A program made the translations under genes and the position numbers. Below are positions 18,170 through 18,548 of a stretch of DNA of 64,000 nucleotides, piece after piece. Numbering within the stretch: position 1 is the stretch's first letter; each line of letters begins with the position of its first letter. Source of the DNA: a virus (lineage: Duplodnaviria; Heunggongvirae; Uroviricota; Caudoviricetes); the IMG/VR virus record IMGVR_UViG_3300025299_000102. One strand, 5' to 3'. The notes beneath the pieces are model-generated. The model saw only the letters and a program-made list of their open reading frames with translations. It did no database searches and was not told where the DNA came from.

Positions 18170-18267
18170 GATTCAAAAACTGGCTGAGAATGGGCTTAGT
18201 TTACCATTTTCAATGCAAAGCTGAAAGCCGTTGGCCTGCGCCAGGAGTAATATTTCTCGAAATGCAC

Positions 18268-18295
18268 TTGACAATGAAGCTGTTTTGGATATACT
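18268..18295 (+). promoter_or_regulatory. sigma70-like promoter TTGACA-16-TATACT
   Basis: Near-consensus hexamers; predicted TSS ~18302. Confidence 0.5.
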
Positions 18296-18301
18296 ACTCA
18301 T

Positions 18302-18530
18302 GTTCGGACAAGGATGGTTACAGCACATTTACTCTAAATGTCATAGCCGGTATCAACCACCTGGGCACGAAACCCCAGGATTTTGCCGCATATCCGGTCT
18401 AGGGAGGCAATCCTAGACTAGCTGGGCGCTGCGAATAGCACCCCCTCCCTGCGCAGGTAGCGCGGGACGACCGAACCGTAATTACACCATCCTGGCGGGC
18501 GGGGCCTAATCAGCTCCGCCCATTCTATTT
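18302..18530 (+). ncRNA. candidate structured RNA (~230 nt) between promoter and intrinsic terminator, or attenuating leader of downstream gene
   Basis: Four consecutive hairpins (CCTGGG/CCCAGG 18357-18382; GTCTAGG/CCTAGAC 18397-18420; GCGCTGCG/CGCAGgtaGCGC 18425-18463; GGGCGGGGC/GCTCCGCCC + U-rich 18483-18530); no convincing ORF. Confidence 0.35.
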
Positions 18531-18548
18531 CGTTTCCTGGACCTATCC

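What the first reader, a model, noticed from the sequence alone, without database searches (positions are those of the whole stretch)
18258..18548. Promoter-to-terminator structured RNA (~230 nt) immediately upstream of a Ro60/TROVE-like vWA protein: candidate Y-RNA-like sRNA or attenuating leader
A near-consensus promoter (TTGACA-16-TATACT, 18268-18295) is followed by ~230 nt with no credible ORF. This stretch contains four strong hairpins and ends in a GC-rich hairpin plus U-rich tract (18483-18530), 18 nt before the ATG of the vWA gene. That gene lacks an SD. The transcript is therefore either an independent sRNA, or a long regulatory leader whose terminator must be bypassed to express the gene. 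Potential long-range 5'/3' complementarity exists (GTTCGG 18303-08 with CCGAAC 18472-77; AGGATGGT 18312-19 with ACCATCCT 18487-94). The neighbouring protein has a helical domain plus vWA/MIDAS layout like Ro60. In bacteria and some phages Ro60 genes are flanked by Y RNA genes, so a Ro-Y RNA-type RNP is a testable hypothesis.
Basis: partly seen in the sequence, partly recalled or inferred. Interest (0 to 1): 0.7.

Follow-up and report, generated by a model that had tools for sequence, protein, structure and literature searches.

The report
Y-RNA-like partner of Ro60-like protein
The flagged stretch encodes a real, conserved, highly folded ~200-nt noncoding RNA just upstream of a protein with the Ro60 fold, and it shares a short stem-plus-ACAGCA signature with many small RNAs next to the same protein family in phages, which points to an undescribed relative of the Ro60-Y RNA particle.

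Summary
A near-consensus promoter (18268-18295) is followed by a structured, non-coding ~200-nt RNA (from ~18302). It ends in a terminator hairpin (18497-18521), 27 nt before a DUF2828/DUF7788 gene (18549-19925). Nine relatives were found, whose proteins are 52-76% identical where measured. They keep the promoter, the RNA and a terminal hairpin, while sequence upstream of the promoter does not align. Of 56 modelled base pairs, 25 show compensatory changes. No Rfam family matches.

The protein's predicted structure matches Ro60/Rsr over its full length, ahead of any vWA-only protein.

The RNA's closing stem plus "UU-ACAGCAC" is one instance of a motif I found beside distant DUF2828 genes in phages and Clostridia: a 7-9 bp covarying stem, 1-2 nt, then ACAGCAA. 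Copies are always on the gene's strand and usually tandem, and some carry YrlA-like tRNA-mimic modules. In mycobacteriophage Rumpelstiltskin the only three copies in the genome sit directly after its "Ro-like RNA binding protein" gene.

Best reading: a Y-RNA-like partner RNA of a divergent Ro60-like protein, with the gene expressed by terminator read-through. It is not a member of Y_RNA or YrlA. A purely cis-acting attenuator cannot be excluded. Binding is inferred, not shown.

The parts
18268..18295 (+). Sigma-70-type promoter: TTGACA (18268-73), 16-nt spacer, TATACT (18290-95). The inferred transcription start is about 18301-18302.
   Evidence: The consensus scan gives 11/12. The -10 TATACT is identical in all 10 family members, and GTTCGG begins 6-7 nt after it. 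Alignable conservation among relatives starts at the -35 box.
18302..18530 (+). The whole noncoding RNA: a ~192-nt core (18302-18493) plus the terminator hairpin and U-rich tail.
   Evidence: nhmmer finds 10 family members. The covariation count gives 90% of cells paired against 37-48% for slid controls, and 25 of 56 pairs have compensatory changes. No Rfam match in the region, even at E<=10.
18302..18307 (+). 5'-terminal GUUCGG, the 5' strand of the candidate pseudoknot with CCGAAC 18471-18476.
   Evidence: Invariant in 10 of 10 members, so no covariation is possible. Its position relative to the -10 box is fixed. The pairing itself is inferred.
18311..18317 (+). Closing (basal) stem P1, 5' strand AGGAUGG. 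It pairs with 18487-18493.
   Evidence: All 7 pairs form in all 10 sequences; the outermost pair is A-U in 8 members and G-C in 2. It corresponds to the covarying basal stem of the phage units.
18320..18326 (+). ACAGCAC, the family-wide 'ACAGCA' motif, 2 nt after the P1 5' strand.
   Evidence: A PWM built only from phage and Clostridia units ranks site 18308 third among ~128,000 window positions. The two higher-scoring sites and the other top hits inspected lack a 3' partner. The motif is conserved in all 10 members, with L047 reading UCGGCAC.
18325..18341 (+). H1, a variable hairpin with weak support.
   Evidence: Predicted in the MFE fold. Its sequence and length are not conserved among relatives.
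18346..18389 (+). H2, a two-part helix: outer GC(C)GGU/GCCGC and inner CCUGGG/CCCAGG.
   Evidence: 83-86% of cells are paired, and 8 of 11 pairs have compensatory changes.
18396..18419 (+). H3 hairpin with the conserved loop GAGGCAAU.
   Evidence: 4 of 8 pairs have compensatory changes.
18424..18443 (+). H4 hairpin with the conserved GCGAAU loop.
   Evidence: 95% of cells are paired, and 6 of 8 pairs have compensatory changes.
18448..18466 (+). H5 hairpin with loop AGGUA.
   Evidence: 94% of cells are paired, and 4 of 7 pairs have compensatory changes.
18467..18481 (+). The near-invariant single-stranded block around the PK 3' strand: ACGA-CCGAAC-CGUAA, with CCGAAC at 18471-76.
   Evidence: CGACCGAACCG is invariant in all 10 members; the base before it and the U of CGUAA each vary in at least one member. 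It served as the search pattern that recovered L057, L127 and L156.
18487..18493 (+). P1 3' strand CCAUCCU, followed by G as in the phage units (..CUUG/..CCUG).
18497..18535 (+). Intrinsic-terminator-like hairpin (18497-18521) plus a U-rich tail.
   Evidence: A hairpin at this position is present in all members, with a U-tract of variable quality; 80% of cells are paired.
18549..19925 (+). DUF2828/DUF7788 protein with a Ro60-like fold: a helical domain plus a vWA domain with MIDAS. It is the presumed protein partner.
   Evidence: Pfam DUF7788 2e-40, DUF2828 5e-29, VWA_2 3e-5. PHROG 850 'RNA-binding protein', 1e-113. AlphaFold2 pLDDT 88. The nine best Foldseek PDB hits are all Ro60/Rsr.

Best explanation
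The region is a gene for a ~200-nt structured noncoding RNA, the RNA partner of the adjacent Ro60-like DUF2828 protein. In other words, it is a Y-RNA-like RNA of a divergent Ro family.

Transcription starts at about G18302 from a strong sigma-70 promoter, so the 5'-terminal GUUCGG is itself part of the fold. The RNA is closed by a 7-bp basal stem (18311-17 with 18487-93), followed by UU-ACAGCAC. I propose that this stem plus the ACAGCA internal loop is the protein-binding module, for two reasons. The same module recurs in RNAs flanking DUF2828 genes in phages of Actinobacteria, Firmicutes and uncultured hosts. It also occupies the place that the Ro-binding stem with its CGAA bulge has in Y RNAs.

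The 150-nt interior (H1-H5, locked to the 5' end by the GUUCGG/CCGAAC pseudoknot) would be the lineage-specific 'effector' module. It would be analogous to the PNPase-tethering or tRNA-like modules of Y RNAs.

Most transcripts would stop at the hairpin at 18497-18521 and give the free RNA. The fraction that reads through would be the only mRNA for the protein, so RNA would be made in excess over protein.

Shown here: the promoter and terminator motifs, conservation, covarying structure, the Ro60-like predicted fold, and the genomic association of the motif with the gene family. Inferred: physical binding, the pseudoknot, read-through, and the role of the interior module.
For: 1. The RNA is real.
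- Nine relatives keep the promoter, the RNA and a terminal hairpin while sequence upstream of the promoter does not align.
- 56 pairs are 90% paired, against 37-48% for slid controls, and 25 pairs have compensatory changes.

2. The partner has the Ro60 fold.
- The top nine PDB matches are all Ro60/Rsr (E 1.5e-7 to 8e-6, TM up to 0.63, full length). vWA-only proteins score E>5e-3.
- Profile-to-sequence hits to Ro60/TROVE are weak, E~0.3.
- The MIDAS DxSxS motif is invariant.
- Homologues in mycobacteriophages are annotated 'Ro-like RNA binding protein'.

3. The module is shared.
- ACAGCA occurs at 0.91 per kb on the gene strand in DUF2828 flanks, against 0.24 per kb on the other strand.
- 53 of 78 flank copies have a >=7-bp helix ending 1-3 nt upstream, against 13-14 for reversed or shuffled controls.
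- The basal stem is 88% paired against 31-44% when slid, with a covariation score of 0.79 against 0.11-0.21.
- All 47 hits of model R1 in 40 loci are on the DUF2828 strand.

4. Independent genomes not used to build R1.
- Listeria phage LMTA-148 has three units just upstream of its DUF2828 gene, and Rumpelstiltskin has three just downstream of gp54.
- In the whole 69-kb Rumpelstiltskin genome these three are the only hits.

5. Test from the RNA side.
- Of 120 viral loci found by the RNA pattern alone, 46 hold a DUF2828 gene.
- All 52 motif copies in those loci are on the gene's strand, and half lie within ~210 nt.

6. The window RNA fits the module.
- The 5' motif PWM ranks it 3rd of ~128,000 positions, with the expected 3' strand followed by G.

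7. Link to Y RNAs.
- Several units contain a T-arm, an acceptor-like hairpin and a D-arm in YrlA order, with sub-threshold YrlA hits of 24-34 bits.
- Known Y RNAs lie within 4 kb on the same strand as Ro60, and have a 5'/3' stem with a conserved motif near the 5' end (PMC4201824; PMC12135203).

8. In L045 a 118-aa ORF sits between the RNA and DUF2828, so the RNA is not tied to that gene's start.

9. The window also encodes a T4 Rnl1-like RNA ligase, a PhoH-PIN protein and a Band-7 protein, which suggests an RNA-repair or RNA-metabolism setting.
Against: - There are no expression or binding data of any kind.
- R1 does not hit the window, even with filters off at E<=10. The link to the phage units therefore rests on a ~20-nt motif plus a stem, not on a whole-RNA alignment.
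- The window RNA matches no Y_RNA or YrlA model. It lacks GNCGAA and any tRNA-like module, and it is about twice the usual Y RNA size.
- The pseudoknot and most of P1 are invariant, so they carry almost no covariation evidence.
- 74 of the 120 pattern-found viral loci show real units with no DUF2828 within ~3 kb, next to unrelated phage genes. The motif is therefore not exclusive to the gene's neighbourhood.
- The gene has no promoter of its own, which fits a leader equally well.
- Only 10 family members were found, from a narrow Burkholderiales-type plasmid lineage.
Confidence: 0.6

Rival explanations
1. The RNA is a cis-acting regulatory leader, either a riboswitch or a protein-dependent attenuator. 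It acts only as the 5' UTR of the DUF2828 mRNA. A ligand, or the DUF2828 protein itself in autoregulation, would decide whether the hairpin at 18497-18521 terminates transcription.
For: - The order promoter - structured RNA - terminator - gene, all on one strand, holds in 10 of 10 members, and no other promoter for the gene is visible.
- The RNA has many invariant unpaired nucleotides, as aptamers do.
- The G-rich 5' strand of the terminator is partly complementary (4+3 bp around a mismatch) to the conserved C-rich junction CCCUYCC at 18441-18449 (inspection of the sequences).
Against: - No conserved, mutually exclusive antiterminator was found, and MFE folds of every member form P1 and the terminator together.
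- The P1 3' strand abuts the terminator but does not overlap it.
- The same stem-ACAGCA module occurs downstream of the gene (L016-L020, L034, Rumpelstiltskin) and in tandem arrays with their own promoters and terminators, where it cannot be a leader.
- In L045 another ORF separates the RNA from the gene.
- The U-tract is of variable and often poor quality.
Confidence: 0.25
2. The RNA is a structured RNA with a function unrelated to the neighbouring protein, for example a trans-acting base-pairing sRNA, a ribozyme, or a plasmid maintenance or replication RNA. On this view the shared ACAGCA motif is a coincidence or a transcription or processing signal.
For: - The topology S1a-S2a-[domain]-S1b-(hairpin)-S2b resembles nested double-pseudoknot ribozymes (my reading).
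- The host replicons carry TrfA and ParM-like plasmid genes.
- Stem-ACAGCA units are dispersed in large phage genomes near unrelated genes.
Against: - Linkage to DUF2828 is strict, same-strand and adjacent in 10 of 10 members.
- Transcription starts at the first nucleotide of the putative P1-like helix, so there is nothing 5' to cleave off, which argues against an HDV-like ribozyme.
- No Rfam ribozyme, intron or plasmid RNA hit.
- The motif-gene association is far above chance, whether tested from the gene side or from the RNA side.
Confidence: 0.1
3. There is no functional element. On this view the region is a chance promoter-like site and GC-rich hairpins in an ordinary intergenic spacer.
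For: For the single sequence the folding z-score is only -2.46.
Against: The region is conserved with compensatory changes across relatives whose proteins are only 52-76% identical, while the flanking intergenic DNA is unalignable.
Confidence: 0.01

Closest known systems
Bacterial and phage Y RNAs / YrlA (Rfam RF02553), partners of Ro60/Rsr, for example D. radiodurans Yrn1, Salmonella YrlA/YrlB and Thermus phage phiLo Yrl1/2
   Same: - The RNA is encoded next to, and on the same strand as, a Ro60-fold protein.
- The RNA ends form a closing stem, with a short conserved motif just inside its 5' strand and a variable interior module.
- Related units in phages come as tandem arrays and may carry a permuted tRNA-like module in YrlA order.
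- The neighbourhood contains RNA-repair genes: RNA ligase here, RtcB in Listeria phages, PNK and RNA ligase in Rumpelstiltskin.
   Different: - The protein belongs to DUF2828/DUF7788, not Pfam TROVE, and is only ~11-14% identical to Ro60 in structural alignment.
- The conserved RNA motif is ACAGCA(A/C), not GNCGAAN0-1G or GGUCCGA.
- The window RNA has no tRNA-like module and no Rfam hit.
- It is ~200 nt with five helices and a candidate pseudoknot.
- It has its own sigma-70 promoter and intrinsic terminator.
Stem-ACAGCAA units flanking DUF2828 genes in phages and Clostridia
   Same: - A basal stem whose outer end reads 5' ..AAG / CYUG.. 3'.
- A 1-2 nt spacer, then ACAGCA, with an A-rich 3' side of the internal loop.
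- The same strand as the DUF2828 gene, and adjacent to it.
- Transcription appears to start at the foot of the structure.
   Different: - The phage units are 50-130 nt, AT-rich, multi-copy and mostly unstructured inside, or tRNA-like.
- The window RNA is single-copy and GC-rich. It has a 9-nt 5' extension (GUUCGGACA) and a 150-nt multi-helix interior.
- R1 does not detect the window RNA.
Transcription-terminating riboswitches and leaders
   Same: - Promoter, then a conserved complex fold, then an intrinsic terminator, then the gene.
- Many invariant unpaired nucleotides.
   Different: - No identifiable antiterminator or expression platform overlapping the aptamer-like fold.
- The downstream gene is an RNA-binding-type protein, not a metabolic gene or transporter.
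- The signature module also occurs in non-leader positions.

Membership tests
Y RNA / YrlA (Ro60-associated ncRNA) | Encoded within ~4 kb of the Ro60 gene, on the same strand (PMC4201824). | tested here: met
   The RNA's terminator ends 27 nt upstream of the Ro60-fold gene on the same strand, in 9 of 10 members. In L045 it lies ~400 nt upstream.
Y RNA / YrlA (Ro60-associated ncRNA) | The partner protein is a Ro60/TROVE orthologue. | tested here: inconclusive
   Pfam gives DUF2828 + DUF7788 and no TROVE hit. The predicted fold matches Ro60/Rsr best and over its full length. Sequence-profile hits to Ro60 are only E~0.3. It is a structural relative, not an orthologue.
Y RNA / YrlA (Ro60-associated ncRNA) | A stem formed by the 5' and 3' regions of the RNA. 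| tested here: met
   P1 18311-17 / 18487-93 is paired in 10 of 10 members, and the basal stem covaries strongly in related units.
Y RNA / YrlA (Ro60-associated ncRNA) | A conserved Ro-binding motif, GNCGAAN0-1G (bacteria) or GGUCCGA (metazoa), near the 5' end. | tested here: not met
   The 5' end reads UGUUCGGACAAGG. It resembles both motifs but matches neither. The conserved motif here is ACAGCAC.
Y RNA / YrlA (Ro60-associated ncRNA) | A tRNA-like module (T-arm, acceptor-like hairpin, D-arm) and a match to the Rfam model. | tested here: not met
   No Y_RNA, YrlA or tRNA hit in 18150-18650 even at E<=10, and ARAGORN finds nothing. Related phage units do have such modules, but below the YrlA gathering score: 24-34 bits against 69.
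Y RNA / YrlA (Ro60-associated ncRNA) | Size 80-130 nt. | tested here: not met
   The core is ~192 nt, or ~230 nt with the terminator.
Y RNA / YrlA (Ro60-associated ncRNA) | Physically bound by the Ro protein. | not testable with these tools
   This needs RIP/CLIP or EMSA.
   The window reads AAGGAUGG-UU-ACAGCAC ... CCAUCCU-G. The PWM ranks it 3rd of ~128,000 positions, and the two higher-scoring sites and the other top sites inspected lack a 3' partner.
   For the wider family.
   No hit in the window with filters off at E<=10. The 170-nt interior exceeds what a model built from 52-81-nt units can span.
Transcription-terminating riboswitch / attenuator | An intrinsic terminator between the conserved fold and the gene. 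| tested here: met
   A hairpin is present in all members, but its U-tract varies.
Transcription-terminating riboswitch / attenuator | A conserved alternative (antiterminator) pairing that is mutually exclusive with the terminator. | tested here: inconclusive
   None appears in the MFE folds. The only candidate is a generic match between the G-rich terminator strand and the C-rich junction, interrupted by a conserved mismatch and without covariation (from the sequences).
HDV-like self-cleaving ribozyme | A cleavage site 5' of the first nucleotide of P1, which requires upstream transcript. | tested here: not met
   GUUCGG begins 6-7 nt after the -10 box in all members, so the transcript starts there. 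No Rfam hit.

The most novel reading that the evidence does not exclude
DUF2828/DUF7788 proteins have homologues in 695 cultured-phage records and also occur on plasmids and in bacterial MAGs. They would form a second, so far undescribed branch of Ro-type ribonucleoproteins, each pairing with RNAs that carry a 'stem + ACAGCA' docking module.

That module would be grafted onto very different bodies: bare ~60-nt units, YrlA-like permuted tRNA mimics, tRNA-like RNAs with the module in place of the anticodon loop, and the ~200-nt pseudoknotted RNA of this window. The window RNA's large interior would then be a new effector or sensor domain that recruits an RNA-processing partner, or binds a ligand, to direct the Ro-like ring.
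Probability: 0.45. Interest if true: 0.8.

Novelty: new variant of a known kind. Interest (0 to 1): 0.66.

Why it matters
Ro60-Y RNA particles are a conserved but still poorly understood RNA-surveillance system. In bacteria and phages they are known only for TROVE-type Ro60 with YrlA or Yrn-type RNAs.

If the reading is right, a much larger and phage-rich protein family uses the same logic with a different RNA recognition motif. That family includes Felix O1-like, P100-like, cluster L mycobacteriophage and KVP40-like phages.

This would give an immediately testable protein-RNA pair, with a defined ~20-nt docking module that can be mutated. It would explain unannotated gaps next to 'Ro-like RNA binding protein' genes. 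It would also add a new complex-folded RNA class that is absent from Rfam.

Tried and rejected
Searches that found nothing:
- Rfam: nothing in the region, neither at gathering thresholds over the whole window nor at E<=10 over 18150-18650.
- ARAGORN: no tRNA or tmRNA in the window.
- blastn of 16000-22000 against INPHARED phages, and of the RNA against PLSDB plasmids: no match.
- PADLOC: no defence-system hit for the protein or two neighbouring proteins.
- The genome-contig scan with the protein returned only distant Clostridia and other MAG loci, not the close Burkholderia relatives. P0045 could not be located.
- nhmmer with the window-family alignment finds no homologue next to distant DUF2828 genes.
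- R1 finds nothing in the window.

Structural ideas considered and dropped:
- HDV-like ribozyme: the topology is similar, but the transcript starts at P1.
- Group I intron: the order of helices is wrong and there is no Rfam hit.
- T-box or tRNA-like fold: no T-arm or D-arm.
- Extending P1 by UUAC/GUAA: L047, L046 and L156 break it.
- Pairing CAGC (18321-24) with GCUG after H3, as in the MFE fold: L042 breaks it.
- A tertiary pairing of the H3 loop GAGG with the CCUC/CUUC junction: compatible in most members but not in L045, so it stays open.

Other points:
- The search for a conserved antiterminator gave only generic G-rich/C-rich complementarity (that script's terminator-strand extraction was faulty, so I used only the folds it printed).
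- The sub-threshold YrlA hit in L013 spans two adjacent tRNA-like elements. This is the tandem-tRNA artefact that Chen et al. warn about, so I did not count it.
- The supplementary tables of PMC4201824 are not held. I therefore could not check whether cluster L phages were among the 22 phages reported there.
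Full report
**1. What is at 18258-18548**

The sequence has TTGACA (18268-73), a 16-nt spacer and TATACT (18290-95). This is the best promoter-like site in 17000-21500, matching 11 of 12 consensus positions. 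A 9-bp, 8-GC hairpin at 18497-18521 is followed by AUUCUAUUUC. The ATG of a 458-aa ORF is at 18549. The 240 nt after the -10 box fold to -86.1 kcal/mol, against -73.8 +/- 5.0 for shuffles (z = -2.46).

GUUCGG is 18302-07 and pairs with CCGAAC 18471-76. AGGAUGG is 18311-17 and pairs with CCAUCCU 18487-93. The two pairings cross, so together they would form a pseudoknot. Rfam finds nothing here, even at E<=10, and ARAGORN finds no tRNA or tmRNA.

**2. The RNA is conserved and covaries**

The downstream protein has 72-76% identical homologues on 350-720 kb contigs of Burkholderia and Paraburkholderia. The loci around three of them align with the window from the -35 box through to the ATG, while sequence upstream of the promoter does not align. 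More distant homologues (52-63% identity) and three metagenome contigs, recovered with a pattern from the invariant core, bring the family to 10 members (nhmmer).

- In all 10 the -10 box is TATACT, and GTTCGG begins 6-7 nt after it. The RNA's 5' end is therefore the GUUCGG element itself.
- RNAalifold on six sequences gives 54 pairs, 16 with double-sided changes.
- My explicit model on the 10-sequence alignment has P1, H2a/b, H3, H4, H5, the terminator and the pseudoknot. It is 90% paired, against 37-48% for slid controls, and 25 of 56 pairs have compensatory changes.
- P1 has one covarying pair. The pseudoknot is invariant, so it is untested.
- The mechanical ORFs that overlap the region are not conserved.

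In L045 a 118-aa nucleoside-deoxyribosyltransferase-like ORF lies between the RNA and the DUF2828 gene. The host replicons carry TrfA and ParM-like genes, so they look like large plasmids.

**3. The protein has the Ro60 fold**

Pfam assigns DUF7788 (2e-40), DUF2828 (5e-29) and a weak VWA_2 hit. PHROG 850 'RNA-binding protein' matches at 1e-113. A 30-sequence alignment shows an invariant DxSxS MIDAS motif and many invariant arginines in the helical half.

The AlphaFold2 model has pLDDT 88 and pTM 0.87. Its nine best Foldseek matches in the PDB are all Ro60/Rsr entries: 2nvo, 1yvr, 9nfa, 9nen, 2i91, 9nf8 and 1yvp. They score E 1.5e-7 to 8e-6, align over ~540-570 columns and reach TM 0.63. vWA-only proteins start at E 5e-3. 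Profile-to-sequence search gives only weak Ro60/TROVE hits (E~0.3).

Homologues occur in 695 phage records. Those in cluster L mycobacteriophages are annotated 'Ro-like RNA binding protein'. I found no paper that describes bacterial DUF2828 proteins or an RNA partner for them.

**4. The lead that decided the interpretation**

Rfam scans of distant DUF2828 loci (30-40% identity; IMG/VR and Clostridia MAGs) showed tRNA arrays. They also showed odd 103-123-nt 'tRNAs' with a ~55-nt insertion in the anticodon arm. Each insertion contained a hairpin followed by NN-ACAGCA, the same heptamer that follows P1 in the window RNA (UU-ACAGCAC, 18320-26).

I then counted the motif systematically across 30 non-redundant loci.

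| Measure | Gene strand, DUF2828 flanks | Comparison |
|---|---|---|
| ACAGCA density | 0.91 per kb | 0.24 per kb on the opposite strand |
| Copies with a >=7-bp helix ending 1-3 nt upstream | 53 of 78 | 13-14 of 78 with a reversed or shuffled 5' strand; 7 of 54 on the opposite strand |

The units read 5' (U)AAG-stem, 1-2 nt, ACAGCAA, a variable interior of 30-110 nt, an A-rich stretch, then stem'-CUUG 3'.

- On 24 minimal units the basal stem is 88% paired, against 31-44% when slid. The covariation score is 0.79 against 0.11-0.21, and 8 of 9 pairs have double-sided changes.
- Covariance model R1 gives 47 hits in 40 loci, all on the DUF2828 strand. It gives none in the 64-kb window.
- Some units enclose a T-arm, an acceptor-like hairpin and a D-arm in YrlA order, with sub-threshold YrlA scores of 24-34 bits against a gathering score of 69.

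**5. Independent checks**

In genomes not used to build R1:

- Listeria phage LMTA-148 has three units directly upstream of its DUF2828 gene (E 2e-8, 4e-8 and 5e-4).
- Mycobacteriophage Rumpelstiltskin has three units in the unannotated 370-nt gap directly after gp54, the 'Ro-like RNA binding protein'.
- A filter-free scan of the whole 69-kb Rumpelstiltskin genome on both strands returns only those three. The array is bracketed by terminator-like hairpins, and its middle unit is YrlA-like. Rfam calls nothing there.

- 46 of these stretches contain a DUF2828 homologue. All 52 motif copies in them are on the gene's strand, and half lie within ~210 nt.
- The other 74 stretches carry genuine units: 71 of 84 have two further complementary base pairs. 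They have no DUF2828 within the ~3 kb available and sit next to unrelated phage genes.
- The module is therefore enriched at the gene but not confined to it.

**6. Does the window RNA belong to this module family?**

R1 cannot span its 170-nt interior. However, a PWM built only from the phage and Clostridia units ranks position 18308 (ACAAGGATGGTTACAGCACATT) third among ~128,000 window positions. The two higher-scoring sites and the other top sites inspected lack a 3' partner. At 18308 the partner CCAUCCU-G is present, invariant and in the expected register. One family variant, L047 UCGGCAC, parallels the ACGGCAA variant seen in a phage unit.

I therefore treat P1 plus ACAGCAC as the shared module, and H1-H5 plus the pseudoknot as a lineage-specific interior.

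**7. Mechanism**

Published Y RNAs are encoded within 4 kb of Ro60 on the same strand. They have a 5'/3' stem with a short conserved motif near the 5' end (GNCGAAN0-1G, or a CGAA bulge), plus a variable module that tethers partners or mimics tRNA (PMC4201824; PMC12135203). The present system has the same design with a different protein family and a different motif.

I infer the following, none of it shown by any experiment:

- The DUF2828 protein binds the stem/ACAGCA module.
- The RNA is made as a primary transcript ending at the hairpin at 18497-18521.
- Read-through supplies the protein's mRNA.

The window also encodes a T4 Rnl1-type RNA ligase (9879-11105), a PhoH-PIN protein and a Band-7 protein. 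Listeria phages have RtcB a few genes downstream, and Rumpelstiltskin encodes PNK and RNA ligase. This is the kind of RNA-repair company that Ro60 keeps.

**8. Rivals**

A purely cis-acting leader is not excluded, because the gene has no promoter of its own. Several points argue against it:

- I found no mutually exclusive antiterminator.
- P1 abuts the terminator but does not overlap it.
- The module occurs downstream of genes and in self-contained arrays elsewhere.
- L045 has an intervening ORF between the RNA and the gene.

An unrelated function (ribozyme, plasmid RNA) is unlikely given the strict linkage to the gene and a transcription start at the first structural nucleotide. Chance is excluded by the covariation.

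**9. Verdict**

I call it a new variant of a known kind, namely a Y-RNA-like partner of a divergent Ro60-fold family. Confidence in the RNP reading is 0.6.

Noticed in passing
window 5855-5979 (+), with a terminator-like element at ~5985-6056: A 125-nt tRNA-like element. It scores 36.9 bits on the Rfam tRNA model, with intact acceptor, D and T arms (GGUUCGAAUCC), but has a ~50-nt insertion in the variable region and an anticodon loop reading CUCUAAA. ARAGORN does not call it. It has no ACAGCA motif. It lies just downstream of an NAD synthase gene and ~4 kb upstream of a T4 Rnl1-like RNA ligase.
   Followed up: partly
L013 2363-2485, 2492-2608, 2748-2868; L028 2682-2784; L008 821-934: tRNA-like elements of 103-123 nt near phage DUF2828 genes (directly upstream in L013 and L028, ~2 kb upstream in L008). 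Their anticodon loop is replaced by a ~55-nt insert made of a hairpin plus NN-ACAGCA. This is the docking module in a non-permuted tRNA body, with no usable anticodon.
   Followed up: partly
L292 930-1481 (Listeria phage LMTA-148, NC_024787.1): A ROOL RNA match (90 bits against a gathering score of 99.1, E 2e-17) lies ~640 nt upstream of the three DUF2828-associated units. It is in a block with two tRNAs, a RaiA-like gene, the DUF2828 gene and two RtcB-type ligase genes.
   Followed up: no
L169-L288 (74 of 120 loci), for example L254 (4 units), L259 (3 units), L191, L220: Genuine stem-ACAGCAA units also occur dispersed in 100-240 kb phage contigs. They are co-oriented with unrelated genes (terminase, sigma-70-like factor, AAA ATPase, metallophosphatase), and no DUF2828 lies within the ~3 kb that was fetched. 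I could not check whether those genomes encode DUF2828 elsewhere.
   Followed up: partly
window 9879-11105, 21262-22527, 25712-27226(-), 40338-41999; L042-L047 flanks: The replicon is rich in RNA- and nucleotide-metabolism genes: a T4 Rnl1-like RNA ligase, a class II aaRS-like protein, a Band-7/SPFH protein, PhoH-PIN, a 5'-nucleotidase, a 5'-3' exonuclease, FKBP, and in relatives an RNase T-like exonuclease. Relatives carry TrfA and ParM-like genes on 350-720 kb contigs, which suggests an unusual megaplasmid lineage absent from PLSDB.
   Followed up: partly
L045 2631-2987: In one family member a 118-aa nucleoside 2-deoxyribosyltransferase-like ORF is inserted between the RNA and the DUF2828 gene, and the RNA's terminal hairpin there lacks a U-tract.
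   Followed up: partly
L044 691-1950 (-): An IS605 OrfB/TnpB-type (Cas12f-like) gene sits ~1 kb upstream of the RNA in the Burkholderia ubonensis relative. It replaces the 5'-3' exonuclease block seen in the other loci.
   Followed up: no
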